Origin: Firmicutes bacterium UBA2203
GTDB lineage: Bacteria > Bacillota > Desulfotomaculia > Desulfotomaculales > Nap2-2B
Reading direction: 5' to 3'
Length of the DNA stretch: 64,000 bases
NCBI GenBank assembly: GCA_002327235.1
Contig: DCUX01000046.1
Coordinates: forward strand, 4,032 to 68,031
Below the pieces are notes generated by a model that was not told the origin of the DNA, made no database searches, and was given only the letters and a program-made list of their open reading frames with translations. The position numbers were made by a program, and so were the translations under genes. Positions 25,496 through 63,019 of the stretch are shown here, one piece after another; within the stretch, counting starts at the first letter, position 1, and the number at the start of each line of letters is the position of its first letter.

Positions 25496-25523
25496 GTAGG
25501 GGCGTTAAATTTAACGCCCCTAC
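25496..25523. repeat. Family-A 28-bp palindrome GTAGGGGCGTTAAATTTAACGCCCCTAC
   Basis: Perfect palindrome. The same 28-mer or near-identical copies occur at 48488, 50487, 52080, 60438 and 62992. Confidence 0.9.
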
Positions 25524-25645
25524 TGATAGCATTATACCAATTTTTTAGCCTCTTCGCCAACTGGATTTATGGTTGGGGTGTTATAATTTTCCTTATTTTT
25601 GCGTATTTATAGTGGTAAATCCTCTATAAAGGGAGGGAAGGTATT

Positions 25646-28417
25646 ATGCACTGGTCTTCTTTAAGCTCAAAAGAGCTGGCGGAAGTTCTGCAAACTGATA
25701 TAAGCAGGGGACTGACGGAGAAAGAGGCCCGAAAAAGGCAAGCCCAGTTTGGCCCCAATCAATTAACGGCGGCCAGGCAAGCTCCTGTATGGATGGTTTT
25801 TATAAATCAGTTTGGGGATTTTATGGTCTTAATTTTACTGGCGGCGACTATTATTTCTGTTTTTTTGAGTGAATTTGCCGATGCGGCCACCATAATGATT
25901 ATTGTTGTTTTAAATGCTTGTTTGGGTTGCTTTCAGGAATACCGGGCCGAACGCTCTTTGAGGGCCTTAAAAGAACTAACCGCTCCTATGGCTTACGTAA
26001 AGAGAAACAACCTGGGACAAAAAATTCCGGCCCAAGAGATTGTGCCGGGCGACCTTGTTTTTTTGGAAACGGGGGACCGGGTACCGGCCGATATACGCCT
26101 TATCCAGGTGACTGATTTTGAAGTTGAAGAAGCCATCTTAACCGGTGAATCAATACCGGTAAAAAAAACCACGCAAACCTTGCCCAAAGCTCCCCCGTCC
26201 TTTCAAGACGCTCATAATATGGTTTATGCCGGTACCATAGTGACCCGGGGGCGGGGTCAAGGGGTAGTGGTGGGCACCGGAATGAGTACGGAAATGGGAC
26301 ATATCGCCACCATGTTACAGGAAATAACTATTCACCAGACCCCCTTGCAACAACAGTTAGCGCATACAGGCCGCTCTCTGGTTATTTTTTGCCTGGGCAT
26401 TTGCGCGCTGCTTATTCTGGCCGGCGTTTACCGGGGGGAGCCGGTTTACCAGATGCTTTTAGCCGGGGTAAGCCTGGCGGTAGCCGCAATTCCAGAGGGA
26501 CTACCGGCCATTGTAACCATAGTTTTAGCGTTAGGGGTGCAGCGAATGATCAAGCGGCAGGCAGTTATCCGGAAACTGCCGGCTGTTGAAACCCTTGGCT
26601 GTACTACGGTTATTTGTGCCGACAAGACAGGCACCCTTACCCAGAATGAAATGACCGTATGCCAAATAACTCTTGGGCAGGAGCGGATAGAGGTAACCGG
26701 GCGCGGCTACGAACCGAAAGGGGAGTTTATCCCGGCCACGGTAGATAGAAAAGATGAATTTTGGTTATTTCTTAAAACTGCCGCTTTATGCAATAACGCT
26801 ATTCTTAAGCGGGGCAAGATTAGCCTTCCCGGCTTTTGGCGGGGAACAAGACAAAATAGGCCGGAATATCTTTGGGGTATTCACGGTGATCCAACCGAAG
26901 GTGCCCTTTTAGTAATGGCCGCTAAAAAAGGAGTTTGGCGGGAAGAACTGGAAAAAAAGGAACAAAGGGTGGCCGAAATTCCTTTTGAGGCGGAGCGAAA
27001 ATTAATGACGGTGGTTTACCGCCAGGCAAATAAAAAACTAACTGCTTATACTAAGGGAGCCCCTGAAGTTTTACTTGGTTTATGTACTCATTATTGTTTA
27101 GGGGGTCGTTATATCCCTCTTAACCAGGGAGACAAGGAAAAAATCCTTAAGCTAAACAATGATTTAGCCGGTCAGGCCTTACGCGTTTTAGCCCTGGCTT
27201 ACCGTGAACTACCGCAAGACTTGGTTGAATTTAGTACTCCCGTGGTAGAGCAAAAACTTATTTTTCTTGGCCTGGTGGCCTGTATTGATCCGCCCCGGTT
27301 GAGCGCAGCGGCGGCAATAAAAAAATGCCGGCAGGCCGGAATTAAGGTTATCATGATTACAGGTGATCATTTGATTACGGCTAAAGCAATAGCCAAAGAA
27401 TTGGGTTTAGATAAACCGGAGAGTCAGGCTTTAACCGGCAATGCCTTAGAGGCTATTTCTGATGAAGAGTTAAGCCGGACCGTTAAAACAGTATCCGTGT
27501 TTGCCCGCGTTTCGCCAAAACACAAGCTGCGAATTGTCCGGTCACTAAAGAAAGCAGGTGAGGTGGTGGCTATGACTGGTGACGGGGTAAATGACGCTCC
27601 GGCCATCAAGGAGGCAAATGTAGGGATTGCCATGGGCCAAAAAGGAACTGACGTAGCCCGGGAGGCAGCCGCTATGGTATTAACGGACGATAACTTTGCT
27701 TCCATTGTGGCGGCGGTTGAAGAGGGCCGCGGGGTATACGCCAATATCCGCAAGTTTATTCGCTACCTCTTAAGCTGCAACATGGGAGAGGTACTGGTAA
27801 TGTTTCTGGCTCTGCTGTCCGGCTTGCCTCTTCCTTTAGTGCCTATTCAAATTTTATGGATGAATCTGGTCACCGACGGATTACCGGCTATGGCCTTGGG
27901 AATTGAACCACCCGAAAAAAATATTATGCACCGGCCCCCTCGCCAACCGAAAGAAAGTATTTTTGCCCAAGGCATGGGGGGACAAATTTTAAGCAGCGGT
28001 TTTTTTATTGGCCTAGGAACGTGGCTGATTTTTGCTTTTTACCTAAGGGAAAGCGGTAATTTAACTTTAGCCCGGACTATGGCTTTTTGTACCCTGGTGT
28101 TTTTCCAGTTATTTTATGTATTTACTTGCCGGACGGAAGATTATACTCTTAAATGGTCTAATCTTTTTACCAATTCCCTGCTGGTTGCGGCGGTGTTATT
28201 TTCCTTGCTATTACAAATAGCGGTAATATACTTCCCATTTTTGCAGGCTGTTTTTCACACCATTCCCTTAAACTTGGAACATTGGGTGGTGATTACTCTT
28301 ACGGCACTTACTTTGCCCTTGTTTAACCTGCTTGTTTATCAAAAAATAAGCCTGCGTAAAAAAAATTTAACTATGGAGATGAAAAAGCAGGAAATAATAA
28401 ATTTAAAGCGAATATAG
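25646..28417 (+). CDS. P-type Ca2+-transporting ATPase (P2A/YloB-like)
   Basis: 923 aa. [15 protein letters not shown] and [10 protein letters not shown] motifs, 10 TM layout. Confidence 0.9.
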
Positions 28418-28464
28418 CCGCATATAAACATAAAATCTGAAGTAGGAGTAAAAATTATAAAAAA

Positions 28465-33108: not shown

Positions 33109-33696
33109 GTGAGTCAAAACCAGGGTTTGTTGATTGTTTTATCCGGTCCTTCCGGGGTGGGAAAGGGAACAGTTTGTCATGCCCTATTGAATATGCTGCC
33201 GGGCCTTAAGTTATCCGTTTCGGTTACCACCAGACCTCCTAGAGCTGGAGAGGTAGAAGGAATTAATTATTATTTTGTAAGTAAAAAAAAGTTTTTTGAA
33301 ATGGTTGCTCAAGATAAGTTGCTGGAATGGGCGCATACCTATGATTTTTTTTATGGAACACCGCGGGAAGCGGTAAATCACGTTTTAAACCAGGGTAAAG
33401 ATTTAATACTAGAAATTGACGTTCAAGGTGGTATGCAGGTTAAGCAAAGGTTTTCAAGCGCCATAACCATTTTTCTTTACCCTCCATCAATGGAAGAATT
33501 ATTATACAGGTTAAAAAAACGGGCCAGTGATTCACCGGAGGATATTCAAAAGCGGCTACATTGGGCCGCTAAAGAAATGCAGATGTCCACTCAATATGAT
33601 TACGTAGTGGTTAACGATCTAGTAGAAAATGCCGTATCCAAAATCCTGGCTATTTTAACCGCGGAAAAATGTAAAAGGATGAGCAAAGCCCAGTAG
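33109..33696 (+). CDS. gmk: Guanylate kinase
   Basis: 195 aa. GPSGVGKGT P-loop and TTRPPR.GE..G..Y.F motif. Confidence 0.9.
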   Translation: MSQNQGLLIVLSGPSGVGKGTVCHALLNMLPGLKLSVSVTTRPPRAGEVEGINYYFVSKKKFFEMVAQDKLLEWAHTYDFFYGTPREAVNHVLNQGKDLILEIDVQGGMQVKQRFSSAITIFLYPPSMEELLYRLKKRASDSPEDIQKRLHWAAKEMQMSTQYDYVVVNDLVENAVSKILAILTAEKCKRMSKAQ

Positions 33697-33744
33697 GTTA
33701 ATCGTCCCGATTGACATCCAGTAGGTCAATTGTCCCGATTGACC
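33693..33744. repeat. Two tandem family-C hairpin units (GTAGGTTAATCGTCCCGATTGAC / GTAGGTCAATTGTCCCGATTGACC)
   Basis: Related to AGGTCAACCGGGACGGTTGACCT at 54390 and 56087, and in inverse orientation at 53005. The first unit contains the gmk TAG stop. Confidence 0.7.
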
Positions 33745-35315: not shown

Positions 35316-35404
35316 GTAACTACTCAGGTTCAAAGGGGCAAAGGCACAAAGGCACAAAGTTTTTTCATTTTCCCTTGGACTTCTGTGCTTACCTGAATAG
35401 TTAC
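35316..35404. mobile_element. Family-D MITE-like element (89 bp) with terminal inverted repeats GTAACTACTCAGG / CCTGAATAGTTAC and 8-bp direct flank duplication
   Basis: ATAAATTC lies immediately left (35308-35315) and right (35405-35412). Internal CAAAGGCAC repeats. Related copies at 36148, 40706 and 57666. Confidence 0.75.
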
Positions 35405-36147: not shown

Positions 36148-36352
36148 GTAACTATTCAGGTAGGCACGTAGGTTCAAAAGCCTGCCCGCCAGGCTGGCAG
36201 GCAGGTAATCTACCAAAAAAAGATAAATAGGCTAGCCTGCCAGACAGGCGGGGCACAAAGGTCCAAAGTGAAATGAAAACATATAGAAATTAGAAATCTG
36301 CAAGCCTGGCAAAAAACTTTGTGCCTTTGCCCCTTTGAACCTGAGTAGTTAC
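36148..36352. mobile_element. Family-D MITE-like element (205 bp) carrying a nested family-E palindrome (36181-36255)
   Basis: Ends are GTAACTATTCAGG ... CCTGAGTAGTTAC. The right 36 bp are the exact reverse complement of 35316-35351. Inside is CCTGCCCGCCAGGCTGGCAGG...CCTGCCAGACAGGCGGGGCA. Confidence 0.75.
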
Positions 36353-48430: not shown

Positions 48431-48596
48431 GTAGAGGCGTTTAATTTAATACCCCTACCAAGTGACACCAACTTGGTAGGTGCGCAAGTAGGGGCGTTAA
48501 ATTTAACGCCCCTATCGGTGCTTTTGGAGATTGGAAGTTGGAAGTTGGAACCAAAAAGTTCTAACCTCTAACCCCCAACCTCCAATTTCCAACTTC
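48431..48596. repeat. Repeat cluster: degenerate family-A palindrome (48431-48458), small hairpin, canonical family-A (48488-48515), family-B hexamer-periodic hairpin (48525-48596)
   Basis: GTAGAGGCGTTTAATTTAATACCCCTAC; GTAGGGGCGTTAAATTTAACGCCCCTAT; GGAGATTGGAAGTTGGAAGTTGGAAC...CCAACCTCCAATTTCCAACTTC. Confidence 0.8.
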
Positions 48597-48798
48597 AAAA
48601 AGGCAGGGTTTGCCTTTAGCCTAATCATATAGCATCTTTTTTGTTTCTCCTTGGTTAGCCAAGGGTTTTTTTATTTTTAACCTTTTTAGTTGTTTCATGG
48701 GAAAAGAATAAAACTATGTTATTAAGGCAATAATGAAATTGAGGTAATACGGAAAATAAGCTAAAAAAGATTAAAAAATTAGGAGTGAAGGAACAACG

Positions 48799-50478: not shown

Positions 50479-50514
50479 TAGGGGTTATAGGGGCGTTAAA
50501 TTTAACGCTCCTAA
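50479..50514. repeat. Family-A palindrome (ATAGGGGCGTTAAATTTAACGCTCCTAA) preceded by a partial GTAGGGGTT duplication
   Basis: 25/28 match to the canonical 28-mer. Confidence 0.75.
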
Positions 50515-50946: not shown

Positions 50947-51019
50947 TTTTTCGAGGATAAAATCAACAAAGAAGTATACCTCAAGAATAACTAATTAAAA
51001 AGATTAATACGAAAGTTAT

Positions 51020-51165: not shown

Positions 51166-52083
51166 ATGTTAAAACCTTCATTTGTCTTAATAGGGTGCGG
51201 TAAGGTAGGTAGTGCTCTAGCCTGTCTTTTGCAAGAAAAAAATTACCCGCTAGTTGGGGTAGCGAGTAAAAGCCTTGCTTCGGCTCAAAGATTAGCTGAA
51301 AAATTAAATTGTCAAGCCGCAAATAAACCAGAAAAAATAACCCCTCAAGCAGAGCTGGTTTTTATTACTACGCCTGACCGGGAGATTGCTCAGGTGGCCC
51401 AAAGGGTAGCTAAAAAAGGAGGTTTTCACCGAGGCCAAGTAGTTATTCATACCAGTGGTGTTTGTGAGGCCGGCGAATTACGTGGGGTACGGGAAGCAGG
51501 GGCCTTTGCCGCATCCATGCACCCAATTCAAGCGGTAGCTGATGTAGAAACAGCCCTTAAGAATTTACCGGGCTCTTATTTTGCCCTGGAAGGAGATACC
51601 GAGGCTTTACCGGTAGTAACCACCTTAGTTTCTGATTTAGGAGGACGTTTTTTCTTTATTCAGGCTAAAGATAAGCCTCTTTACCATACCGCGGCCTGCG
51701 TAATTTCAAACTATTTAGTGGGTTTGGCTCATTTTAGTACGGGATTATATCAAAGTTTTGGCTTGTCAAGAAAAGAGGCTTTTCAAGCCTTGTTACCTCT
51801 TATTCGGGGTACGCTTGATAACATTGAGCAAAATGGTCCTATCTTAGCTCTTACCGGGCCGGTAGATAGAGATGACGAAGAAACCATTAAAAGTCATTTA
51901 AATGCATTAACGCAAAAAGTGACCCAGGAGGAAATTAATCTATACTGTGCTCTTGGGCTATACATCATTTCTATTGCCCGGGAAAAGGGGAGTCTTAACG
52001 CTGAGCAGGCCGCAAGATTACAGACAATTTTTACTACAGGAAGAATTCAGCCGCGTATTTTAGAAAGGCTAAAAATCAAGTAG
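51166..52083 (+). CDS. Rossmann-fold / DUF2520-type protein, putative ketopantoate reductase-like first gene of the pan operon
   Basis: 305 aa. N-terminal IGCGKVGSALA dinucleotide-binding motif. The position upstream of panBCD suggests a role in pantoate synthesis (inference). Confidence 0.6.
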   Translation: MLKPSFVLIGCGKVGSALACLLQEKNYPLVGVASKSLASAQRLAEKLNCQAANKPEKITPQAELVFITTPDREIAQVAQRVAKKGGFHRGQVVIHTSGVCEAGELRGVREAGAFAASMHPIQAVADVETALKNLPGSYFALEGDTEALPVVTTLVSDLGGRFFFIQAKDKPLYHTAACVISNYLVGLAHFSTGLYQSFGLSRKEAFQALLPLIRGTLDNIEQNGPILALTGPVDRDDEETIKSHLNALTQKVTQEEINLYCALGLYIISIAREKGSLNAEQAARLQTIFTTGRIQPRILERLKIK

Positions 52084-52107
52084 GGGCGTTAAATTTAACG
52101 CCCCTAC
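52080..52107. repeat. Family-A 28-bp palindrome (canonical)
   Basis: GTAGGGGCGTTAAATTTAACGCCCCTAC. Its TAG (52081-52083) is the stop codon of the preceding gene. Confidence 0.9.
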
Positions 52108-52985: not shown

Positions 52986-53004
52986 AAGATAATTATTCAA
53001 TGAT

Positions 53005-53024
53005 AGGTCAACCGTCCCGGTTGA
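53005..53024. repeat. Family-C hairpin in inverse orientation (AGGTCAACCGTCCCGGTTGA)
   Basis: Reverse-complement form of GGTCAACCGGGACGGTTGACC. Confidence 0.7.
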
Positions 53025-53050
53025 TAAAAACAATAGATGGAGCGTAAAAA

Positions 53051-53931: not shown

Positions 53932-54303
53932 TTGTTTTTAACCATGTTGAAATCTAAAATTCACCGGGCCACGGTAACAGAGGCAAACTTGAATTACACC
54001 GGTAGTATTACTATTGACCAGACTTTGCTTGAAGCAAGCAATATTCTGCCTCACGAGAAAGTACAGGTAGTCAACATTAATAATGGCGCGCGCTTTGAGA
54101 CTTATGTAATTACCGGTCCGCCAAATTCAGGAGTGGTTTGTTTAAATGGGGCCGCCGCTAGATTGGTGCAGCCCGGTGATATGATCATTATTATTTCTTA
54201 TATGCTGGTAACTGCAGAAGAGGCGCAAGCTATTAAGCCTACCATCGTGATGGTAAACGAACAAAATCAAATTACGGAAGTAGGCCGATCTGGCGAGAAG
54301 TGA
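53932..54303 (+). CDS. panD: Aspartate 1-decarboxylase
   Basis: [12 protein letters not shown] start and YTGSITID self-processing site. Confidence 0.9.
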
Positions 54304-54417
54304 GAGGTGAAAAGTCGGAAAGGAGAATAAGAAGGGATTTGGTGGTGCCGAATCTCCCTATTAAAGTTCTACCTCCAACTTCTGTTTTTGTCAACCGGGA
54401 CGGTTGACCTACCATTT
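54303..54417. repeat. Degenerate family-B arm(s) plus family-C palindrome (54390-54417)
   Basis: ...GATTTGGTGGTGCC...AGTTCTACCTCCAACTTC...GTCAACCGGGACGGTTGACCTACCATTT. Same module order, inverted, as at 56087-56185. Confidence 0.65.
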
Positions 54418-54467
54418 CTTATCCACGGCCGAACAAACAACCCAGCAAAGGGTTTTAATGAGTTTTA

Positions 54468-56075
54468 ATGAGTTTTAAGGAGGAAGTATATTTGTTCAAA
54501 CCCTATTTAGTAAATTTTGATACCCGGCAGTTACCGGTGGAAACATATGAATATGTTATTATTGGCGGGGGTATTGCCGGGTTATATACGGCTTGTAAAG
54601 TGGCCCGGGAGGGGGGACAGGTTTTGGTCCTTACCAAGCATACCCTGGAAGATACCAGCACTGATAAGGCCCAAGGGGGAATCGCGGCTGCTTTAGGTCA
54701 ATCTGATTCACCGGAATTGCACTTTAAAGATACTATTTTTGCCGGGGCAGGATTATGCGATCCTAAAGCAGTTGAAATATTGGTTAATGAAGGGGTAAGC
54801 CGGGTTAAAGAATTGATTGAGTGGGGGGCTCAGTTTGACTACGATGAAGGGGAGTTGGCGTTAACCAGGGAAGGAGCGCATAGCCAGCGTCGCATTTTGC
54901 ACGCGGCCGGTGACGCTACCGGAGCAGAAATTCAACGTGCTCTTGCCTACCAGGCCAATCAAATTCCTAACCTTAAAATATACGAAAACTATTTTGTAGT
55001 AGATTTACTGGTAGCCGATGATATTTGTTACGGAGTCCTGGCCTGGGATAATGTTAACCAGTGTTTTAAGGTGTTTTACGGCCGGGTGGTTGTTCTGGCT
55101 ACCGGTGGTACGGGCCAGGTATACGAACATAATACTAATCCTGAAATAGCTACGGGTGATGGTATTGCCATGGCTTATCGGGCCGGGGCGGAAGTTATGG
55201 ACATGGAATTTATCCAGTTCCATCCCACCGTGCTTTGTTTACCCGGGGCGCCCTCTTTTTTAATTTCTGAGGCCGTACGTGGTGAAGGCGCCCGGTTGCG
55301 AAATTGTTACGGCGAGCAGTTTATGCCATGTTATCATCAATTGGCAGAGTTAGCCCCCCGCGATATAGTGGTCCAAAGTATGCTTAAAGAAATGGTCCGG
55401 ACAGGTTCAAAAAACGTTTTTTTAGACCTGTCTCCCCTACCGGCGGAGGTAATCCAGCAACGTTTTCCTAATATCACCCGTACATGCGCTACTTACGGCC
55501 TGGATATTACTAAGGACCCTATCCCGGTTGCTCCGGCGGCTCATTATATGATGGGAGGGGTAAAAACTAATCTGCACGGTGAAACCAACATCAAGGGGCT
55601 TTACGCTTGCGGCGAGGTAGCCTGCCAGGGGGTCCACGGGGCTAATCGCCTGGCTAGCAATTCTTTACTGGATGGCTTGGTTTTTGGTTTTCGGATTGTA
55701 AAAGAAAGTATGCGTTTTTTAACCAGTTACGTTCCTTCGTCAGTTGAATTCGTTTGTAATTATTTAAAACCGCCTGAGGAAATAAAAATAAATGGCCTAA
55801 CGCGTGAGTTACGGGCGGTAATGAATAAATGTGCCGGTCCTGTTCGCTCATGCCAAAGATTAACGGGAGCTTTAAGTTTTTTTGAAAACCAGGCTGATTT
55901 GTTCTTAAGTGAAGCAAAAAATATCGCCGAAATGGAGTTACGTAATATGCTCCTGGTTGGTCAACTAATTTGTGAGGCCGCTTTAATGAGGACAGAAAGC
56001 CGGGGGGCGCATTACCGGGAAGATCATCCTGCCGCAAGTGAGCGGTGGGTTAAACATATAATTTTACGTTTATAG
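54468..56075 (+). CDS. nadB: L-aspartate oxidase
   Basis: 535 aa. YVIIGGGIAGL FAD motif and the HYMMGG / RGAHYRED motifs. A likelier start is TTG 54492, 8 nt after AAGGAGG. ATG 54468 lies in a 10-bp tandem repeat (AGTTTTAATG x2). Confidence 0.9.
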   Translation: MSFKEEVYLFKPYLVNFDTRQLPVETYEYVIIGGGIAGLYTACKVAREGGQVLVLTKHTLEDTSTDKAQGGIAAALGQSDSPELHFKDTIFAGAGLCDPKAVEILVNEGVSRVKELIEWGAQFDYDEGELALTREGAHSQRRILHAAGDATGAEIQRALAYQANQIPNLKIYENYFVVDLLVADDICYGVLAWDNVNQCFKVFYGRVVVLATGGTGQVYEHNTNPEIATGDGIAMAYRAGAEVMDMEFIQFHPTVLCLPGAPSFLISEAVRGEGARLRNCYGEQFMPCYHQLAELAPRDIVVQSMLKEMVRTGSKNVFLDLSPLPAEVIQQRFPNITRTCATYGLDITKDPIPVAPAAHYMMGGVKTNLHGETNIKGLYACGEVACQGVHGANRLASNSLLDGLVFGFRIVKESMRFLTSYVPSSVEFVCNYLKPPEEIKINGLTRELRAVMNKCAGPVRSCQRLTGALSFFENQADLFLSEAKNIAEMELRNMLLVGQLICEAALMRTESRGAHYREDHPAASERWVKHIILRL

Positions 56076-56193
56076 GGCGTTAATTTAGGTCAACCGGGAC
56101 GGTTGACCTACCATTTTGGTGGTAAGAGGTTGGAGGTTGGAACTTCTTGATTCCAACTTCCAACTTCCAACTTCCAACTTCCAATCGGAGGTG
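56072..56193. repeat. Mosaic repeat block: family-A half-site (56072-56087), family-C palindrome (56087-56117), family-B hairpin (56125-56185) ending in CCAATCGGAGGTG
   Basis: TATAGGGCGTTAATTTA; AGGTCAACCGGGACGGTTGACCTACCATTTT; GAGGTTGGAGGTTGGAAC...TTCCAACTTCCAACTTCCAACTTCCAATCGGAGGTG. Contains the nadB TAG stop and the nadC SD. Confidence 0.8.
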
Positions 56194-57052: not shown

Positions 57053-57730
57053 GTGGAAGGGAAAAAAATAAGGGTGAAGCAGCGCTTTTTTTACTGTCCT
57101 AAATGCGGCGGAAATTTAAAATATAAACGGTACCGAGAGCGTCCCCGTTTGGTTTGCGTTAGGTGCAGTTATGTCTTTTATGAAAACCCGGCCGTAGGGG
57201 TAGCCGCCATTGTTTTAAATAAAGACAGGCAGATATTGCTAGGAAGGCGCGGTACCACATTGGTGGATATTAGTCATCAGATGTCGGGCGTTAGAAGAAA
57301 AAAACAAACTAATTCTTCAACCATACCGGCGACCGGCAATGAACAACCGGCGAGCTTATATAAAGGACTTTGGTGCATCCCCTGTGGCTACGTTGAATAC
57401 GATGAAGATGTTTACCAGGCGGTGATCCGGGAATTTAAAGAGGAAACCAATTTGGACATTATCTTAAATGGGGTTTTTACGGTACAGTCTAATTTCCATA
57501 ATCCTGAACTGCATACCGTAGGAATATGGTTTATGGCTAAAGTAACGGGGGGAGAATTGCGGGCGGGAGACGATTTAGACCAACTGGCTTATTGTAGTTT
57601 AACTGACCCGCCACCGCTTGCTTTTCCTACGGATAAAATTGTCCTGGACATGCTGGCTAAAACCTTTCAGGTAGGCACAGAGGAGCAAAGGCACAGAGGC
57701 ACAAAGGGAAATGAAACAACCATGCTGTAG
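57053..57730 (+). CDS. NUDIX hydrolase with N-terminal zinc ribbon, an internal ~30-aa insertion and a repeat-derived C-terminal tail
   Basis: CPKCGG...CVRC ribbon. Nudix box GYVEYDEDVYQAVIREFKEETNL. About 40 residues lie between LLGRRG and GLW, where I recall roughly 8-10 in NUDIX proteins. The last ~20 codons lie in the family-D element. Confidence 0.75.
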   Translation: MEGKKIRVKQRFFYCPKCGGNLKYKRYRERPRLVCVRCSYVFYENPAVGVAAIVLNKDRQILLGRRGTTLVDISHQMSGVRRKKQTNSSTIPATGNEQPASLYKGLWCIPCGYVEYDEDVYQAVIREFKEETNLDIILNGVFTVQSNFHNPELHTVGIWFMAKVTGGELRAGDDLDQLAYCSLTDPPPLAFPTDKIVLDMLAKTFQVGTEEQRHRGTKGNETTML

Positions 57731-57850
57731 GGGCATATTGCAATACGCCCCTACAAAGGAGAATGAAAATCCAAGGATTTTCGGATGAAAACATATAGAG
57801 ATCTGCAGGTCTGGCAAAAAAACTTTGTGCCTTTGAACCTGAGTAGTTAC
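57666..57850. mobile_element. Family-D element lacking its left terminal repeat, carrying a nested variant family-A palindrome (57727-57754)
   Basis: TTCAGGTAGGCAC... shared with 36155. Right end ...CTGGCAAAAAAACTTTGTGCCTTTGAACCTGAGTAGTTAC shared with 36305-36352. Nested GTAGGGGCATATTGCAATACGCCCCTAC contains the NUDIX TAG stop. Confidence 0.7.
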
Positions 57851-58847: not shown

Positions 58848-59630
58848 ATGCTTTTAGGGTTTGATGTGGGCAACACTAATATTGTCTTAGGGGTATATCA
58901 GCATAAAGAATTGCTGAAACACTGGCGTTTGTCTACTTTTCCTTACCGTACGGCTGATGAGTACGGGATGTTGTTAATGGATCTTTTTGGCCATGCCGGT
59001 ATCATTTTTCAAGATATTAAAGCCTTAATTATTTCCTCGGTGGTTCCTCCTCTTATGCTGGCTTTAGAACAAATGGCAAAGAATTACTTTAATTTAACTC
59101 CTTTAATTGTTGGGCCCGGCATAAAAACAGGTATGCCTATAAAATATGAAAATCCGCGTGAAATTGGGGCCGACCGGATTGTCAATGCCGTTGCCGGACA
59201 CGCTTTATACGGTAGCCCGCTTATTATCGTAGATTTTGGCACCGCCACCACTTTTTGCGTTATTTCCGCACACGGGGAATATTTGGGAGGGGCTATCGCT
59301 CCAGGGATTAATATTTCGACCGAAGCCTTGTTTACCCGGGCGGCCAAACTCCCCCGCGTTGAACTGGTAAAACCCCCCACCGTTATCGGTAAAAATACGG
59401 TTAACAGTATGCAGTCAGGTATTCTTTACGGTTTCGTGGGTCAGGTTGACGAAATTGTTCGCCGGATTAGAAAAGAACTGGGGGAGAATCCCTTTGTCCT
59501 GGCTACGGGAGGGTTGGCGGAGCTAATTGCCAAAGAATCAAGCACAATTAACGAGGTTGATCCTTTGCTTACTTTAAAAGGATTACAAATTATTTACGAG
59601 CGCAACAGCCAGTTGGAAGTTGGAAGTTAG
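58848..59630 (+). CDS. coaX: Type III pantothenate kinase
   Basis: 260 aa. [11 protein letters not shown] start, GADR and DFGTATT motifs. The last 6 codons and TAG lie in a family-B repeat. Confidence 0.9.
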
Positions 59631-59682
59631 AAGTTGGAAGTTGGAATTAAAAAGTTCCAACTTCCAACCTCCAATCGGAGGT
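59611..59682. repeat. Family-B hexamer-periodic hairpin ending in CCAATCGGAGGT
   Basis: AGTTGGAAGTTGGAAGTTAGAAGTTGGAAGTTGGAATTAAAAAGTTCCAACTTCCAACCTCCAATCGGAGGT. Holds the coaX stop (59628-59630) and the nadE SD (GGAGG 5 nt before ATG 59687). Confidence 0.85.
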
Positions 59683-59686
59683 AAAG

Positions 59687-61468
59687 ATGAGAATTGCCCT
59701 TGCCCAACTCAACCCTATAATTGCCAATATTAAGTATAATACGGTTAGGATTTTACAGGCTATAGATTTTGCCGGCCGGTTAAAAGCTGATTTAGTTATC
59801 TTTCCTGAACTGGCGATAATAGGTTACCCGCCGCGCGATCTTTTGTGGCGCCAGGATATTTTAGAGCAGGTAGAAACAGCTTTAAAAAAAGATATCGCGC
59901 CCAAAAGCAGAGAGCTAGGAGTGCTAATTGGGGCTCCGGTAGTTGATGCCGGGAATCTTTACAATGCGGCCTTGCTTTTTTACGAAGGCAGGCTATTGGG
60001 TCGCCAGGATAAAACATTGCTGCCGGATTATGATGTCTTTGAAGAAAACCGGTATTTTAAACCGGCCCTAAAACGCGAACCGCTTTTATTTAAAGGAGTA
60101 AAGTTTGGTCTGACCGTTTGCGAAGACATTTGGAACGATAAAGATTACTGGAACAGGCGCCATTACTCGGTTGATCCCGTGGAAGAATTAATTGCCCAAG
60201 GGGCAGATTTGATCATTAATATTTCTGCTTCCCCTTATTATTACGGTAAGATTGATTTGCGCTCCGATATGCTGCAAAAAATGGCCGCTAAGTATCAAAA
60301 AATTTTTATTTACGCTAACCAAGTGGGCGGTAATGATGAGCTTATTTTTGACGGGTCCAGTTTAGCCGTTAATTCTAAAGGGGAAATAATAGGCCGGGCC
60401 GGAAGCTTTGGTGAAGATATGCTGTTCTTTAGCCTTTGGAGGGGCGTTAAATTTAACGCCCCTACTATGTACTTAGAAAGTTGGGCACCTGCCCGTCAGG
60501 CTGGCAGAAGGAATAATGATGGTATGATAAATAATCTAACAGCCTGCCAGACAGGCGGGCAGACAGTCGGGAAGGATAAAGAGGAGCGTTTTCCTCAAAA
60601 AATTTACTACGCGTCCTCGCCGGAGGATATAGGTTGTCTTTATCATGCTCTGGTGCTAGGAATTAAGGATTATTTGCGCAAAACCGGCTTTAAACGGGTC
60701 CTGGTGGGTTTAAGCGGGGGCATTGATTCTTCTGTTGTTGCTGCTCTTTCTGCTGCTGCCTGCGGTAAGGAAAATGTTTTAGGGGTGGCCATGCCCTCAA
60801 AATACTCTTCCCCGGGCAGCCTAGCCGATGCACGCCAGTTGGCTTTAAACCTGGGTATAGCGTACCGGGAAATACCTATTCAAGATATCTTTGATAAATA
60901 TCTGGCCACTTTAAACAAAGAAGGCGTTCCTCTGGTTGATTTGGCCGAAGAAAATATTCAGGCCCGCATTCGCGGCAATATTTTAATGTTCATTTCTAAC
61001 CGGGAGGGTTACCTTACCTTAAGCACGGGAAACAAATCGGAGTTGGCGGTAGGGTACTGCACCCTTTACGGGGACATGTGCGGCGGTCTGGCCGTTATTT
61101 CTGACGTCCCTAAAACAATGGTTTATGTTTTGGCCAGGTACATTAACCGGGAACGGGAAATCATCCCCGCCTCAGTGCTGGTTAAGCCTCCCTCTGCCGA
61201 ACTAAGGCCGAACCAAACCGATCAAGATTCTTTACCCCCTTACGAAATCCTGGACGCTATCTTGCACCTGTATATTGAAGAAAATAAACCGGCGGCCGAA
61301 ATTATCGCCGCCGGCTATGATGCGGCACTAGTGCGGGAAATTATCCGAAAAATTGACCGGGCAGAATATAAACGGCGCCAAGCTGCCCTGGGTCTTAAAG
61401 TAACCACCAAGGCCTTTGGTATGGGGCGGCGGATACCCATTGCGTGGCAGCAGCCAATTAGAAGTTAG
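59687..61468 (+). CDS. nadE: Glutamine-dependent NAD+ synthetase (CN-hydrolase + NAD synthetase domains) with repeat-derived in-frame insertion in the interdomain linker
   Basis: 593 aa. N-terminal nitrilase-type domain (FPELAIIGYPP..., C in GLTVCEDIW). C-terminal GLSGGIDSS PP-loop. Insertion at about residues 251-292. Confidence 0.9.
   Translation: MRIALAQLNPIIANIKYNTVRILQAIDFAGRLKADLVIFPELAIIGYPPRDLLWRQDILEQVETALKKDIAPKSRELGVLIGAPVVDAGNLYNAALLFYEGRLLGRQDKTLLPDYDVFEENRYFKPALKREPLLFKGVKFGLTVCEDIWNDKDYWNRRHYSVDPVEELIAQGADLIINISASPYYYGKIDLRSDMLQKMAAKYQKIFIYANQVGGNDELIFDGSSLAVNSKGEIIGRAGSFGEDMLFFSLWRGVKFNAPTMYLESWAPARQAGRRNNDGMINNLTACQTGGQTVGKDKEERFPQKIYYASSPEDIGCLYHALVLGIKDYLRKTGFKRVLVGLSGGIDSSVVAALSAAACGKENVLGVAMPSKYSSPGSLADARQLALNLGIAYREIPIQDIFDKYLATLNKEGVPLVDLAEENIQARIRGNILMFISNREGYLTLSTGNKSELAVGYCTLYGDMCGGLAVISDVPKTMVYVLARYINREREIIPASVLVKPPSAELRPNQTDQDSLPPYEILDAILHLYIEENKPAAEIIAAGYDAALVREIIRKIDRAEYKRRQAALGLKVTTKAFGMGRRIPIAWQQPIRS
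60438..60562. repeat. Family-A palindrome (60438-60465) plus family-E palindrome (60486-60562) inside the nadE reading frame
   Basis: GGAGGGGCGTTAAATTTAACGCCCCTAC (27/28 to canonical). CACCTGCCCGTCAGGCTGGCAG...AGCCTGCCAGACAGGCGGGCAG resembles 36181-36255. Translated as WRGVKFNAPT...WAPARQAGRR...LTACQTGGQT without stops. Confidence 0.85.
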
Positions 61469-61528
61469 AAGTTAGAATTAAAAAGTTCCAACCTCCAACC
61501 TCCAACCTCCAACTTCCAACTTCCAACC
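61458..61528. repeat. Family-B hexamer-periodic hairpin
   Basis: TTAGAAGTTAGAAGTTAGAATTAAAAAGTTCCAACCTCCAACCTCCAACCTCCAACTTCCAACTTCCAACC. Holds the nadE TAG stop (61466-61468). Confidence 0.85.
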
Positions 61529-61575
61529 ACGATAAGACAGGCCTTCGGCCTGCCCAAGCAAAGCGAGGAATTTAT

Positions 61576-62982
61576 TTGGCGGAGCATTTACAGGTTATTC
61601 TAGCGATTGCTATTTTTTTACTTACTTACGCCGTAATTATATCGGAGAAAATTCACCGGGCCGTGGCCGCCATGATTGGGGCCGCTTTACTGGCCCTAAC
61701 CCAAATTTTAAGCGTTGAACAGGCTGTTCAGGCCATTGACTTTAACACCATCGGTTTATTAATTGGGATGATGATTATTGTCGGTATCACCAGACAAACC
61801 GGTTTTTTTGAGTATATGGCTATAAAAGCGGCCAAGTTAGGAAAAGGCGAGCCTTTTCGAATTATCGGCTCTTTAGCGCTGGTCACGGCAGTAACCTCTG
61901 CTTTTTTAGATAATGTTACTACGGTATTGCTTATTGTTCCCGTGACCTTTGCCATTGCAAAACAGCTTGAAGTCAGCCCTATCCCCTTTTTAGTGGCGGA
62001 AATAATTTCTTCTAATATTGGCGGCACCGCCACGCTTATTGGAGACCCGCCTAACATCATGATCGGCAGCAGGGCCGGCCTGGGTTTTATGGACTTTTTT
62101 CTTAACCTGACCCCGGTTATTATCGTTATTTTTATTATTACCATTTTAGCTATCCAGGTTATTTATCGCCGGCAACTCTTTACCCGCCCGGAATTGCAGG
62201 AAAACATCCAGCAGTTAAACGAAAAAGATGAGATTAAGGATTACCTTTTACTAAAGAAATGTTTGATTGTAATTACCTTGACGGTAGCCGGATTTGTTTT
62301 ACACCAGTACCTGCACCTGGAATCTTCGGTAATTGCCTTAAGCGGGGCTAGTTTGCTGCTCCTGATTACCAGAGAGGACCCGGCTAAGGTCTTTCAGACG
62401 GTAGAATGGCCGGTGATTTTCTTTTTTGTGGGTTTATTTGTTGTCGTTGGGGCCCTGGATAAGGTTGGGGTAATTGAAAAGATAGCCAAATTTTCCTTAG
62501 ACGTAACTAAGGGAGCATTAGTTCCAACCGCCACCTTAATCTTATGGCTTTCGGCAGTTGCCTCTGCCTTTGTAGACAATATTCCTTTTGTAGCCACGAT
62601 GATTCCGCTTATCCAGGATATGGGGAGACTGGGTCACATAAGCAATCTGAACCTGCTTTGGTGGAGCTTGTCTCTGGGAGCTTGTTTAGGGGGCAACGGA
62701 ACGATCATAGGGGCGTCGGCCAACGTGGTGGTGGTTGGAATGGCCGAAAAAAAAGGGTTTCTTATTTCCTTTATTAGCTACCTAAAGGTCGCTTTTCCTT
62801 TAATGATTATGTCTATTATTGTTTCTCACCTTTACTTATTGTTTTGGCACCATTATCCCGGTCTGATATCCTTTGCGGGTACATTGCTGGCCGCGGTTAT
62901 TTTGGGACTAGCTTCAAGGCTGCTTAACGGCCGGTTAATCAAACGAGAGCAGTATAAAACAAAAATTGAACCGGATATTTAA
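61576..62982 (+). CDS. ArsB/NhaD-superfamily permease (YbiR/citrate-transporter-like)
   Basis: 468 aa, about 12 TM. ...FLDNVTTVLL..P... and ...GGTATLIGDPPNIMI... motifs, repeated in the second half (FVDNIPFVATMIP; GGNGTIIGASANVV). Confidence 0.75.
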   Translation: MAEHLQVILAIAIFLLTYAVIISEKIHRAVAAMIGAALLALTQILSVEQAVQAIDFNTIGLLIGMMIIVGITRQTGFFEYMAIKAAKLGKGEPFRIIGSLALVTAVTSAFLDNVTTVLLIVPVTFAIAKQLEVSPIPFLVAEIISSNIGGTATLIGDPPNIMIGSRAGLGFMDFFLNLTPVIIVIFIITILAIQVIYRRQLFTRPELQENIQQLNEKDEIKDYLLLKKCLIVITLTVAGFVLHQYLHLESSVIALSGASLLLLITREDPAKVFQTVEWPVIFFFVGLFVVVGALDKVGVIEKIAKFSLDVTKGALVPTATLILWLSAVASAFVDNIPFVATMIPLIQDMGRLGHISNLNLLWWSLSLGACLGGNGTIIGASANVVVVGMAEKKGFLISFISYLKVAFPLMIMSIIVSHLYLLFWHHYPGLISFAGTLLAAVILGLASRLLNGRLIKREQYKTKIEPDI

Positions 62983-62991
62983 CCCGGATAA

Positions 62992-63019
62992 GTAGGGGCG
63001 TTAAATTTAACGCCCCTAC
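62992..63019. repeat. Family-A 28-bp palindrome (canonical)
   Basis: GTAGGGGCGTTAAATTTAACGCCCCTAC, between the permease stop and the rmuC SD. Confidence 0.9.

What the first reader, a model, noticed from the sequence alone, without database searches (positions are those of the whole stretch)
25496..63019. Five interlinked families of small palindromic/MITE-like repeats saturate the core half of the window and form mosaics
Seen in the sequence.

Families:
- Family A is the 28-bp palindrome GTAGGGGCGTTAAATTTAACGCCCCTAC. Copies lie at 25496, 48431 (degenerate), 48488, 50487, 52080, 60438 and 62992. There is a half-site at 56072. A variant at 57727 has a different but still self-complementary core.
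- Family B consists of hairpins built from hexamer-periodic GGAAGT/TGGAAG arms, at 48525, 56125, 59611 and 61458, with a degenerate copy at 54303.
- Family C is AGGTCAACCGGGACGGTTGACCT, at 54390, 56087, 53005 (inverted) and 33693-33744 (a tandem variant).
- Family D comprises 89-205 bp elements with GTAACTAYTCAGG terminal inverted repeats, at 35316, 36148, 40706 and 57666.
- Family E is CCTGCCCGCCAGGCTGGCAGG...CCTGCCAGACAGGCGGGG, at 36181 and 60486.

Mosaics: A or E modules are nested inside D elements. A+E are adjacent in nadE. A-half+C+B are contiguous at 56072-56193. C and B are joined by a shared ATTTTGGTGG-like linker at two loci.

Distribution: I spotted no canonical copy in 1-25 kb, only a weak A-like site at 8014.

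Inference: this is an active or recently active non-autonomous element system, REP/BIME- or Correia-like. I do not recognise these sequences as described repeats.
Basis: seen in the sequence. Interest (0 to 1): 0.7.

Follow-up and report, generated by a model that had tools for sequence, protein, structure and literature searches.

The report
Mosaic of REPs, MITEs and hairpins
The core half of this window, from an uncultured Peptococcaceae bacterium, really is peppered with several families of small hairpin-forming repeats, but they are separate kinds of element that nest in one another, and the main one is a known type of REP tied to RayT transposases and found unchanged in many phyla.

Summary
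All five families are at or near the stated coordinates and far exceed chance. All recur in three related genomes.

- Family B arms have a 7-nt period, not 6.
- C is a GTAG-tagged REP.
- E is a discrete 75-nt element with 20-nt inverted ends and no target duplication.
- D is a true MITE with a 13-bp inverted end starting GTAA and an 8-bp target duplication.
- A sixth composite family carries A copies.

Family A is exactly 28 nt, GTAG…CTAC. It matches the "double-foot" REPs described for RayT/TnpA_REP subclass 2.4. The same 28-mer lies in frame inside RayT genes, and abuts some of them, on unrelated metagenome contigs. Exact copies occur in genomes assigned to eight or more phyla, but 75 of 96 exact cores lie in three Peptococcaceae-lineage genomes.

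Comparison with genomes at about 86-95% identity shows gains, losses and replacements at the same intergenic spots, nesting in hairpin loops, and in-frame copies inside nadE.

No RayT was found in any sequence held for this lineage, so current activity is unproven.

Verdict: real, and a new member of known kinds (REP, MITE, periodic hairpins). It is not one interlinked system. Interest is moderate.

The parts
25496..25523 (.). Family A, exact 28-bp double-foot REP GTAGGGGCGTTAAATTTAACGCCCCTAC. It lies in the divergent intergenic region between rqcH (-) and a P-type ATPase gene (+).
25256..25285 (.). Degenerate A copy (80% to the reference), in frame near the N-terminus of the NFACT/RqcH gene 23550-25334(-). 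The peptide reads DGTLNITPL. The protein has 6 extra residues here relative to solved RqcH.
48431..48458 (.). Degenerate A copy GTAGAGGCGTTTAATTTAATACCCCTAC, downstream of a sigma-factor gene. UBA9916 also has this copy.
48459..48487 (+). Left arm of a composite 'F' element (CCAAGTGACACCAACTTGGTAGGTGCGCAA) that precedes A in at least 6 loci of relatives. Together with the next A copy it forms a 57-nt segment that UBA9916 lacks.
48488..48515 (.). Family A copy with an exact 26-nt core and 1 mismatch at the last base. It is gained in the window relative to UBA9916.
48524..48599 (+). Family B hairpin with heptamer-periodic arms: (TTGGAAG)n, loop, (AACCTCC/TTCCAAC)n. Its loop is the empty site for an E insertion present in UBA9916.
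50487..50514 (.). Family A copy with 3 mismatches, downstream of spoIIR. It is present at the orthologous site in all four genomes.
52080..52107 (.). Family A, exact copy. Its TAG supplies the stop codon of the DUF2520 gene (51166-52083). Present in the window and UBA9916, absent in SCADC1_2_3 and UBA4795.
33690..33743 (+). Family C as a tandem of two 28-nt units (CCAGTAGGTCAATCGTCCCGATTGACAT), with the GTAG tag on the + strand.
53003..53027 (+). Family C copy (ATAG-GTCAACCG-TCC-CGGTTGA). SCADC1_2_3 has an A-variant palindrome at the same spot and UBA4795 has neither.
54296..54384 (+). B2 sub-type hairpin with arms of other heptamers and a conserved central hairpin (GGGATTTGGTGGTGCCGAATCTCCC). 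At this intergenic site the three relatives carry an A copy instead.
54388..54412 (-). Family C copy, with the GTAG tag on the - strand (GTAGGTCAACCGTCCCGGTTGAC).
56072..56086 (.). Left half of an old A copy (ATAGGGCGTTAATTT), interrupted at its centre. UBA4795 keeps TAGGGGCGTTAA followed by a different insert.
56086..56111 (-). Family C, best copy (TAGGTCAACCGGGACGGTTGACCTAC). Absent at this site in UBA9916, which is about 94% identical.
56115..56190 (+). Family B hairpin, with (TTCCAAC) x4.9 at 100% matches. Its right end runs into the ribosome-binding site of nadC.
35316..35404 (+). Family D MITE, 89 nt. It has GTAACTAYTCAGG inverted ends, octamer (CACAAAGG) arms, and a perfect 8-bp target duplication, ATAAATTC.
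36148..36352 (+). Family D MITE, 205 nt, carrying a nested E element.
36181..36255 (+). Family E element of 75 nt, nested in D.
40706..40820 (+). Family D MITE, 115 nt, with 28-nt arms that are 93% complementary.
57664..57850 (+). Family D MITE with a truncated left end and a nested A-variant. Absent from the orthologous site in UBA4795 and present in UBA9916.
57727..57754 (.). A-variant REP GTAGGGGCATATTGCAATACGCCCCTAC. Its TAG is the stop codon of the NUDIX gene. The perfect form (…GCGTATTGCAATACGC…) occurs in UBA9916 and in a Sumerlaeota MAG.
59611..59674 (+). Family B hairpin between coaX and nadE. The coaX stop codon lies in its first arm. UBA9916 has a B2-type hairpin here instead.
60438..60465 (.). 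Family A copy (1 mismatch) inside nadE, read in frame as RGVKFNAPT.
60488..60571 (+). Family E element (75 nt plus a 9-nt partial tandem) inside nadE. Together with A it forms a 47-residue insert in the linker between the glutaminase and synthetase domains.
61458..61528 (+). Family B hairpin just after nadE, with the nadE stop codon in its first heptamer. SCADC1_2_3 has an A copy at this spot and UBA9916 has GTAGG followed by E.
62992..63019 (.). Family A, exact copy, 20 nt upstream of the ribosome-binding site of the next gene. It marks the right edge of a 1.5-kb segment (B plus the CitMHS transporter gene) that UBA9916 lacks.

Best explanation
The window comes from an uncultured Peptococcaceae/Desulfotomaculum-like bacterium. 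It holds at least six independent families of small structured repeats that have piled into the same short spacers of co-directional housekeeping operons.

**Families A and C: GTAG-tagged REPs**
- A is a 28-bp perfect palindrome with GTAG at one end and CTAC at the other, a 'double foot'. This is the REP type that goes with RayT/TnpA_REP HUH-tyrosine nucleases of subclass 2.4 (RAYT group 4).
- Inferred mechanism: the nuclease binds the hairpin formed in single-stranded DNA, reads the GTAG foot, cuts at the foot and rejoins. The 28-mer therefore spreads as a sharply bounded unit without target duplication, on either strand because it is symmetric.
- The same 28-mer rides in frame inside the RayT gene. 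This plausibly explains why it is carried unchanged between phyla.

**Family D**
- D is a conventional MITE moved in trans by a DDE transposase. It has a 13-bp inverted end starting GTAA and an 8-bp AT-rich target duplication.

**Family E**
- E is a 75-nt hairpin element that enters hairpin loops without target duplication. It probably also moves through single-stranded DNA.

**Family B**
- B, and the arms of D, are palindromes whose arms are tandem 7- or 8-nt units.
- They most likely grow, shrink and homogenise by slippage and intrastrand template switching.

**Nesting**
- Nesting arises because hairpin loops and existing repeats are accessible and harmless targets.

**Consequences shown in the sequence**
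- Repeats supply stop codons.
- They reshape protein C-termini.
- They abut ribosome-binding sites.
- They add an in-frame 47-residue linker to NadE.

Effects on mRNA stability or termination are inferred, not tested.
For: **Unit boundaries of A**
- In 93 distinct copies, position -1 is G in 92%. Positions from -2 outward are random.

**Distribution of A**
- The exact core occurs in 14 genomes of about eight phyla. Of 96 exact cores, 75 lie in the three Peptococcaceae-lineage genomes.
- The outer stem TAGGGGCG/CGCCCCTA is kept constant while the inner palindrome varies.

**Link between A and RayT**
- An Edwardsbacteria RayT-like gene carries A in frame and has a related REP at its 5' end.
- Thirteen clusters of RayT proteins read RGVKFNAPT directly after the HUH motif.
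- DNA confirms the exact 28-mer in the open reading frame, with degenerate or exact A copies abutting the gene.
- Ten of 48 non-lineage metagenome loci that hold A encode a RayT.
- RayT core identity is 0.56-0.84 within an embedded-REP type and 0.50 between types.

**Literature**
- Quentin et al. 2018 (PMC6006769) describe subclass 2.4 with double-foot REPs, three G-C pairs at the stem foot, in-frame REPs inside tnpA_REP, and a patchy distribution across phyla.
- Di Nocera et al. 2013 (PMC3733652) describe the GTAG superfamily.

**Hairpin constraint on A**
- There are 11 symmetric compensatory changes against 3.0 expected (P about 0.0005).

**Family D**
- Six of 11 complete copies have flanking 8-mers matching at 7 or 8 of 8 positions. 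The control gives 0 of 11.

**Family E**
- E is a constant 75 nt.
- A filled site in UBA9916 and the empty site in the window, within the B loop, show no duplication.

**Turnover between genomes at 86-95% identity**
- Gains, losses and replacements occur at seven intergenic spots.

**In-frame copies**
- NadE carries a 47-residue insert relative to solved NadE.

**Lineage restriction**
- B-E are restricted to this lineage.
Against: - No RayT gene was found in the window, in 66 loci of three related genomes, or in 32 contigs of the UBA9916 source metagenome. About 0.5 Mb was held, all of it chosen to lie near exact A copies. None of the top hits of two protein searches was named as Peptococcaceae.
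- No clean empty site for an A insertion was obtained, so the absence of a target duplication for A is not directly shown.
- The transposase for D and the mobilising activity for E are unknown.
- The slippage and template-switch origin of B is inference only.
- Phylum assignments of the non-Firmicute copies rest on the titles of MAG records.
- REP dissemination by RayT has itself never been reconstituted. The literature calls the mechanism poorly understood (PMC8266576 abstract).
Confidence: 0.65

Rival explanations
1. Fossil repeats. A and C were seeded by a RayT that this lineage has since lost. The copies no longer move. Differences between genomes come from deletion, recombination between repeats and replacement. 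Exact copies persist through selection on the hairpin or through gene conversion.
For: - No RayT was found in about 100 lineage loci.
- Most A copies are shared by the window and UBA9916, and several are degenerate (25256, 48431, 50487, 56072).
- A 1.5-kb segment bounded by repeats is missing in UBA9916, which shows repeat-associated deletion.
- Contigs of the same strain from different samples are 99.98-100% identical.
- RAYT loss is known in E. coli strains (PMC3733652).
Against: - There are 14-35 exact 26-nt cores per related genome. That is hard to keep without recent copying.
- An exact A copy with 29 nt of carrier sequence is present in the window but not in UBA9916 at about 94% identity.
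- The assemblies are fragmented and break at repeats, so a RayT gene could simply be unassembled.
Confidence: 0.2
2. One interlinked non-autonomous system. All five families are modules of a single MITE-like element family mobilised by one transposase.
For: - The families are physically nested and adjacent at several loci.
- They share the same lineage and the same kinds of intergenic spots.
Against: - The end structures differ: GTAG/CTAC for A and C, GTAA… with an 8-bp duplication for D, and 20-nt inverted ends without duplication for E.
- The distribution differs. A occurs in about eight phyla without B-E.
- Each family also occurs alone.
Confidence: 0.08
3. Conserved cis-regulatory sites, such as operators, terminators or attenuators, kept by selection and not mobile.
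For: - Some copies are conserved at orthologous sites in four genomes (50487).
- Many sit at gene 3' ends or just upstream of ribosome-binding sites.
- Compensatory changes keep the hairpin.
Against: - Orthologous sites differ in presence, absence and element type.
- There are in-frame copies inside nadE, rqcH and RayT genes.
- Identical 28-mers lie in unrelated flanks in many phyla.
- No T-tract follows the elements and terminator-like sites are not enriched: 32 found against 24.9 ± 5.4.
- No Rfam family matches.
Confidence: 0.05
4. The cross-phylum spread of A is an artefact of mis-binned contigs in MAGs, and A is really confined to one lineage.
For: All non-Firmicute carriers are MAGs.
Against: - The carrier contigs have G+C of 0.33-0.56 and no similarity to the lineage.
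- They lack B-E.
- They carry their own REP variants and RayT genes.
- RayT proteins with the embedded peptide are only about 58% identical to one another.
Confidence: 0.02

Closest known systems
Double-foot GTAG REPs of TnpA_REP subclass 2.4 / RAYT group 4 (Quentin et al. 2018, PMC6006769)
   Same: - 5' GTAG and 3' CTAC ends.
- Three or more G-C pairs at the foot of the stem.
- Long perfect hairpin.
- The same REP lies in frame inside RayT genes, between the HuH and Tyr motifs, and abuts some of them.
- Patchy distribution across phyla.
   Different: - Here the carrier lineage is a Firmicute (Peptococcaceae). The main text of neither REP survey I searched names Firmicutes as a host.
- No RayT was found in the lineage.
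- One exact 28-mer is shared by about eight phyla.
GTAG-tagged REP superfamily and E. coli BIMEs (Di Nocera et al. 2013, PMC3733652)
   Same: - Palindromes of 20-40 bp with a terminal GTAG (A and C).
- Several REP families coexist in one genome.
- Location downstream of genes.
- Intragenic in-frame copies.
- Clustering into mosaics.
   Different: - Copy number is tens, not hundreds.
- A is fully symmetric.
- The mosaics here mix REPs with unrelated element types (a MITE, a 75-nt hairpin element, periodic hairpins) rather than REPs joined by fixed linker motifs.
Bacterial MITEs (Correia/NEMIS, Nezha, IS66-derived elements)
   Same: D is 89-205 nt, has no open reading frame, has terminal inverted repeats and a target-site duplication, is multi-copy, and sits next to genes. 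IS66 ends start GTAA… and make 8-bp duplications (PMC11946415), as D does.
   Different: - The D end is GTAACTAYTCAGG, not the IS66 GTAAGCG.
- No autonomous partner was found.
- D arms are tandem octamers or heptamers whose unit differs between copies.
- The Correia features recalled from memory (a 26-bp inverted repeat and a TA duplication) do not fit.
REPINs (Bertels and Rainey 2011, PMC3116915)
   Same: E is a doublet of two inverted ~20-nt units with a spacer that folds into one long hairpin. It inserts without target duplication.
   Different: - E units have no GTAG tag.
- No RAYT link is shown.
- A occurs mostly as single units.
Cyanobacterial STRR heptamer repeats and small dispersed repeats (Elhai et al. 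2008; recalled from memory, paper not held)
   Same: - Tandem heptamers in intergenic DNA.
- Very small palindromic repeats nested in other repeats.
- Co-occurrence with subclass 2.4 RayT-type REPs.
   Different: - Here the heptamer arrays come as inverted pairs that form hairpins.
- The host is a Firmicute.
- The resemblance was not tested against cyanobacterial sequence.

Membership tests
GTAG-tagged REP superfamily | Short (20-40 bp) palindrome able to form a stem-loop | tested here: met
   A is a 28-bp perfect palindrome. C has a 10-11-bp stem and a 3-nt loop.
GTAG-tagged REP superfamily | Conserved GT[AG]G tetranucleotide at the foot | tested here: met
   - A: G at position -1 in 92% of 93 copies, followed by TAG.
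- C: GTAGGTCAACCG….
GTAG-tagged REP superfamily | Dispersed, multi-copy, mostly extragenic | tested here: met
   - 14-35 exact A cores in each related genome.
- 173 distinct A-like sites are held.
- In the window, 7 of 10 A-type sites are outside or at the very end of genes.
- C is a small family: 5 matches in the window and 3 in relatives.
Double-foot REP of TnpA_REP subclass 2.4 | 5' GT[AG]G plus its reverse complement C[TC]AC at the 3' end | tested here: met
   GTAG…CTAC is present. Both end bases are paired in 84 of 93 copies.
Double-foot REP of TnpA_REP subclass 2.4 | The same REP lies beside and, in frame, inside a tnpA_REP gene between the HuH and Tyr motifs | tested here: met
   Seen in L013, L089, L090, L116, L154, L156, L164, L169 and L176. 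The proteins match NF047646 at E 1e-12 to 1e-16 and are named RayT by their sources.
Double-foot REP of TnpA_REP subclass 2.4 | A cognate tnpA_REP gene in the same genome | tested here: inconclusive
   None was found in the window or in about 0.5 Mb of lineage sequence near A copies.
REPIN | [quoted passage not shown] | tested here: not met
   A copies are mostly singletons. The 48431/48488 pair is separated by a carrier arm rather than being a hairpin doublet. E has the doublet shape but no GTAG.
MITE (family D) | Terminal inverted repeats, target-site duplication, under 300 bp, no open reading frame, multi-copy | tested here: met
   - Exact 13-bp inverted ends.
- 8-bp duplications in 6 of 11 complete copies against 0 of 11 in the control.
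- Length 89-214 nt.
- 27 ends found in the four genomes.
IS66-derived MITE (family D) | Ends starting GTAAGCG, an 8-bp duplication, and an autonomous IS66 with the same ends | tested here: inconclusive
   The GTAA start and the 8-bp duplication are met. GTAAGCG is not met, because D has GTAACTA. No autonomous copy was seen in the held loci.
Correia/NEMIS element | 100-155 bp, 26-bp inverted repeats, TA target duplication (recalled from memory) | tested here: not met
   D has 13-bp ends and 8-bp duplications. No family shows a TA duplication.
Intrinsic terminator | G+C-rich hairpin directly followed by a T-tract | tested here: not met
   Flanks of A are compositionally random from position ±2 outward. 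Terminator-like sites are not enriched.
Known RNA families (Rfam 15) | A match at the gathering score | tested here: not met
   The only matches are a cobalamin riboswitch and a pan motif. Neither overlaps a repeat.

The most novel reading that the evidence does not exclude
The 28-mer, and its companion variant GTAGGGGCGTATTGCAATACGCCCCTAC, would be a pan-phylum REP 'species'. Its master copy is kept inside the RayT reading frame and is re-seeded into each new host after horizontal transfer. This Peptococcaceae lineage would be its largest known expansion and the first in Firmicutes. The accompanying palindromes with tandem 7-8-nt arms also occur beside A in unrelated contigs (L057, L116, L159) and recall cyanobacterial STRRs. 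They would be a by-product of the same single-strand hairpin-processing activity rather than of ordinary slippage.
Probability: 0.15. Interest if true: 0.65.

Novelty: new member of a known kind. Interest (0 to 1): 0.45.

Why it matters
**Host range and conservation**
- The result extends GTAG REPs of the RayT subclass 2.4 type to a Firmicute lineage of hydrocarbon-degrading methanogenic communities.
- A single REP sequence can be identical in genomes assigned to about eight phyla. REPs are usually regarded as lineage-specific and vertically inherited.

**A compact natural test case**
- Within 40 kb, REPs, a true MITE, a loop-targeting 75-nt element and periodic hairpins replace one another at the same operon spacers.
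- They supply stop codons.
- They add a 47-residue linker to an essential enzyme, NadE.
- They bound a gene-sized deletion.

**Practical uses**
- The repeats explain why MAGs of this group are fragmented.
- They offer markers for strain typing.

Tried and rejected
- **Cyanobacterial origin.** A HIP1 (GCGATCGC) search gave 0 hits, so the window is not cyanobacterial.
- **Crude motif search for RayT.** A regular-expression search for HUH…Y..NP found nothing and was too strict. phmmer with E. coli RayT then pointed to L013.
- **Literature search by sequence strings.** It returned only primer matches.
- **Elhai et al. 2008.** The paper is not held, so the comparison with small dispersed repeats rests on memory.
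- **Strand asymmetry of B hairpins.** Three copies fold better on the - strand and one on the + strand. This is inconsistent, so no inference was drawn.
- **Within-strain polymorphism.** Six contigs carrying the identical NadE are 99.98-100% identical to the window, so they carry no information.
- **Search for a Peptococcaceae RayT.**
  - phmmer on all held loci found none.
  - Two large protein searches found none named as Peptococcaceae.
  - Cluster names gave no lineage hit.
  - The metagenome scan returned contigs of UBA9916's source but none with a RayT.
- **The 68-nt direct repeat at 9249/23460.** It is a fragment duplication of a small acid-soluble spore protein gene, not a repeat element.
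- **The multi-copy flanks of A on six short SCADC contigs.** They belong to repeated PD-(D/E)XK (Rpn/YhgA-like) genes identified by eye, not to a transposon carrying A.
- **Terminator and Rfam explanations.** Both were rejected.

Full report

Yes.

- **Family A.** The palindrome GTAGGGGCGTTAAATTTAACGCCCCTAC has six matches with at most 3 mismatches, at the stated positions, where none is expected. Repeat finding adds degenerate copies at 48431 and 25256. A relaxed stem search recovers the variant at 57727.
- **Family C.** It has five matches and a 28-nt tandem at 33690-33743.
- **Families D, E and B.** The D ends (7 exact; 0.07 expected), the E units (5; 0 expected) and the B arms (15; 0.02 expected) are all far above chance.
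- **Distribution.** None of these patterns hits the first 25 kb. That stretch encodes accessory metabolism: a radical SAM enzyme behind a cobalamin riboswitch, a 2-oxoacid:ferredoxin oxidoreductase, transport proteins and a LysR regulator. The second half is housekeeping: a P-type ATPase, spoIIR, and the pan, nad, birA, coaX and nadE genes.

- The period of the B arms is 7, not 6. Examples are TTCCAAC x4.9 at 100% matches and AGTTGGA x5.1.
- The D arms have period 8.
- The C copy said to be at 54390 starts at 54388.
- The site at 8014 is not a palindrome.
- 'Saturate' overstates numbers that are tens per genome.

**2. Whose genome is it?**

The window is 94-95% identical to contigs of Desulfotomaculum sp. 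UBA9916, about 90% to Peptococcaceae bacterium SCADC1_2_3 and about 86% to Firmicutes bacterium UBA4795. Contigs 99.98-100% identical to it occur in several JGI, ENA and Logan assemblies. All five families recur in the relatives. B-E were not found in the loci of other phyla.

**3. Family A is a sharply bounded 28-nt unit.**

- In 93 distinct copies the base before TAGGGG is G in 92%. Everything further out is compositionally random. The end pair G/C is kept in 84 of 93 copies, whereas the next positions pair at chance level.
- The exact 26-nt core occurs in 14 of 185,579 species-representative genomes. The counts are 35, 26 and 14 in the three Peptococcaceae-lineage genomes, and 1-5 in MAGs labelled Cyanobacteria, Nitrospinota, Nitrospirae/Nitrospiria, Edwardsbacteria, Sumerlaeota, Thermodesulfobacteriota/Syntrophaceae and unclassified bacteria. 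Every copy has unrelated flanks.
- Around these copies sit relatives with the same outer stem (TAGGGGCG/CGCCCCTA) and other inner palindromes.
- The window's variant at 57727 is one of these. Its perfect form occurs in UBA9916 and, exactly, in a Sumerlaeota MAG.
- Degenerate copies show symmetric, pair-preserving double changes more often than shuffling gives: 11 against 3.0 (P about 0.0005). The hairpin itself is therefore maintained.

**4. The link to RayT.**

- GTAG at the foot of a palindrome is the hallmark of REPs associated with RAYT/TnpA_REP nucleases (PMC3733652).
- A phmmer search with E. coli RayT pointed weakly (E = 0.17) to one open reading frame, in the Edwardsbacteria locus L013. 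It is a 187-residue protein with the motifs NHIHGII and YILENP. It matches Pfam Y1_Tnp weakly and NCBIfam 'REP-associated tyrosine transposase' at E 3e-12. It has a related REP at its 5' end and the exact A palindrome inside the reading frame.
- Its family is large: 6354 hits, many named RayT by their sources.
- Nearly every member has, directly after the HUH motif, a variable insert that is the translation of a GTAG palindrome. RGVKFNAPT is family A. VGVQNFEPL, VGAKNFSPL, RDVACxVST and others correspond to other palindromes.
- DNA of two such genes shows the exact 28-mer in frame, with degenerate A copies just outside the gene.
- In a metagenome scan for the A core, 10 of the 48 contigs not belonging to UBA9916's source encode a RayT. 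Nine of these have A inside the gene, and four also have a second exact A core on the contig, three of them abutting the gene end.
- RayT cores are more alike within an embedded-REP type (0.56-0.84) than between types (0.50). REP type therefore tracks RayT lineage.
- All of this is already described as a class. Quentin et al. 2018 define TnpA_Y1 subclass 2.4 (RAYT group 4) by 'double foot' REPs, three G-C pairs at the stem foot, in-frame REPs inside tnpA_REP between HuH and Y, and a patchy, horizontal-transfer-like distribution (PMC6006769).
- Family A is therefore a new member of a described kind.

**5. What is missing.**

No RayT was found in the window, in 66 loci of the three related genomes or in 32 contigs of UBA9916's source metagenome. 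None of the best hits of two protein searches was named as Peptococcaceae. These sequences were all selected to contain exact A cores, where a REP-flanked RayT would be expected. The assemblies are fragmented and break at repeats, and whole genomes could not be scanned. The lineage either has a RayT that is unassembled or carries a diverged REP, or it has lost the gene.

**6. The other families are different kinds of thing.**

- **C** is an ordinary single-foot GTAG REP: GTAG-GTCAACCG-TCC-CGGTTGAC. It occurs in both orientations.
- **D** is a MITE.
  - It has exact 13-bp ends, GTAACTAYTCAGG.
  - Arms are tandem octamers, or other 7-8-nt units in some copies.
  - It has a conserved inner module.
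  - It has 8-bp AT-rich target duplications in 6 of 11 complete copies, against 0 of 11 in a shifted control.
  - IS66 elements have ends starting GTAAGCG and make 8-bp duplications (PMC11946415). D shares only the GTAA start and the 8 bp, so that parentage is a lead, not a finding.
- **E** is a discrete 75-nt element. It has two imperfect 20-nt inverted units around a conserved AT-rich spacer. UBA9916 has one in the loop of the B hairpin, where the window has the empty site, with no duplication.
- **B** hairpins have arms of tandem heptamers. At 59.6 kb the window and UBA9916 carry hairpins with different heptamer units, and the UBA9916 one has a central module like the window's 54.3-kb copy. 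Folding gave no consistent strand preference.
- **A sixth family, 'F'.** This composite surrounds A in at least six UBA9916 loci and at 48.46-48.62 kb in the window.

**7. Turnover.** Alignments of orthologous junctions give the following.

| Window position | Window | UBA9916 | SCADC1_2_3 | UBA4795 |
|---|---|---|---|---|
| 48.4-48.6 kb | Exact A (48488) plus a 29-nt F arm, a 57-nt segment, next to the older degenerate copy; B loop empty | Lacks the 57-nt segment; keeps the degenerate A; has E in the B loop | Lacks A and B; has a different periodic hairpin | Not compared |
| 50487 | A | A | A | A |
| 52080 | A | A | Absent | Absent |
| 53005 | C | C | A-variant palindrome | Nothing |
| About 54.4 kb | B2 plus C | A | A | A |
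| 56.07 kb | Interrupted A with C inserted | Only ATAGGGGCGC remains | Not compared | Half of A plus a different insert |
| 57.66-57.85 kb | D with nested A-variant | Present | Not compared | Absent |
| 59.6 kb | B | B2-type hairpin | Not compared | Not compared |
| 61.46 kb | B | GTAGG plus E | A | Not compared |

UBA9916 also lacks the 1.5 kb that holds the CitMHS transporter gene. There, an E element joins directly to the A copy at 62992.

Nesting goes in several directions: E in B, E in D, an A-variant in D, C in A, and A in E (L052). This is what loop- or repeat-targeted insertion would give.

**8. Effects visible in the sequence.**

- TAG within GTAG is the stop codon of the DUF2520 gene (52081-52083) and of the NUDIX gene (57728-57730).
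- The coaX and nadE stop codons lie in B heptamers.
- Two B elements end in TCCAATCGGAGGT, which carries the ribosome-binding site of the next gene.
- In nadE, A and E are read through in frame. A is read in the same frame, RGVKFNAPT, as in RayT genes. Together with adjoining sequence, A and E account for the 47 extra residues (255-301) that the window NadE has relative to the solved NadE 5kha, placed between the CN-hydrolase (2-246) and NAD-synthase (319-566) domains.
- UBA9916's copy differs by a 12-nt deletion that keeps the frame.
- A degenerate A lies in frame near the N-terminus of RqcH, which is 6 residues longer there than solved homologues.
- The hairpins are not canonical terminators and match no Rfam family.

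**9. Verdict.**

- The families are not one system. The main one belongs to a described class. Current activity is unproven.
- I file A and C as new members of the GTAG-REP kind, with A in the double-foot, subclass 2.4 type, and D as a new MITE family.
- E and B are lineage-specific hairpin elements whose drivers are unknown.
- The least ordinary points are three. An identical 28-mer occurs across about eight phyla. Its largest expansion is in a Firmicute lineage with no RayT in sight. Palindromes with tandem 7-8-nt arms keep appearing beside these REPs.

Noticed in passing
window 48459-48487 and 48600-48625; L015, L054, L074, L028, L041, L002: A sixth repeat family ('F'). About 45 nt of conserved sequence lies to the left of A (…TTAGCTAAAGCCAAACGCCACCAGCTTGGTAGGTACGCAAG). 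About 35 nt lies to its right (…TTTAGAGAGGAAAGAAAGGCTTGCCTTTAG). The ends are partly inverted. Some A copies therefore travel as passengers in a larger element.
   Followed up: partly
window 61455-62991 versus L118 9518-9592 and L086 3685-3777: UBA9916 lacks the B hairpin and the whole CitMHS transporter gene (61576-62982). The junction reads GCAGCAGC-AGTAGG-[E element]-GTAGGGGCG…. SCADC1_2_3 has A copies on both sides of the gene. This looks like a repeat-bounded deletion.
   Followed up: partly
L057 7000-8000 (Sumerlaeota); L159 400-600 and 6150-6225; L116 2790-2840: Contigs of other organisms that carry the A palindrome also carry palindromes with tandem 7-9-nt arms of quite different unit sequence, as well as clusters of other GTAGGGGC-type REPs.
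   Followed up: partly
L013 5483-6031 (Edwardsbacteria): A biotin-carrier-like open reading frame holds two in-frame REP copies, read as VGATPRVAPT and VGATQRVAPT, of the variant GTAGGGGCGACCC…GGGTCGCCCCTAC.
   Followed up: no
L019, L022, L031, L032, L048, L069 (SCADC1_2_3): Six short contigs share the same flanks around an A copy. The shared sequence encodes repeated 309- and 322-residue proteins that look like PD-(D/E)XK Rpn/YhgA-type 'putative transposases', with EKGI or EARG tandem repeats. They were identified by eye only.
   Followed up: partly
window 9249-9316 and 23460-23527: A 61-68-nt direct repeat (91-95% identical) is the 5' part of an alpha/beta-type small acid-soluble spore protein gene on the - strand. 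The intact copy lies at about 9.2-9.4 kb. A truncated fragment lies just downstream of rqcH.
   Followed up: yes
window 2028-2243 and 50954-51051: A cobalamin riboswitch (79 bits) lies upstream of a radical SAM gene. A pan motif (41.8 bits) lies upstream of the DUF2520/panB-panC-panD cluster.
   Followed up: no
window 54452-54482: A 10-nt tandem repeat, GTTTTAATGA x3.1, lies immediately upstream of the nadB ribosome-binding site. It sits in the stretch where the relatives have an A copy instead.
   Followed up: no
window 9510-9977(-), 10592-11374(+) and 11310-11936(+): A 155-residue open reading frame matches only the C-terminal half of the His_biosynth family. The HGD-D dehydratase region is split over overlapping reading frames. 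These are possible pseudogenes in the repeat-free first part of the window.
   Followed up: no
L034 2096-2170 (UBA9916): Next to a run of N, the A palindrome is followed by tandem half-copies (…CTACAAGTTAAATTTAACGCCCCTACAAGTTAAATTTAACGCCCCTAC). This may be an assembly artefact at a repeat or a real tandem array.
   Followed up: no
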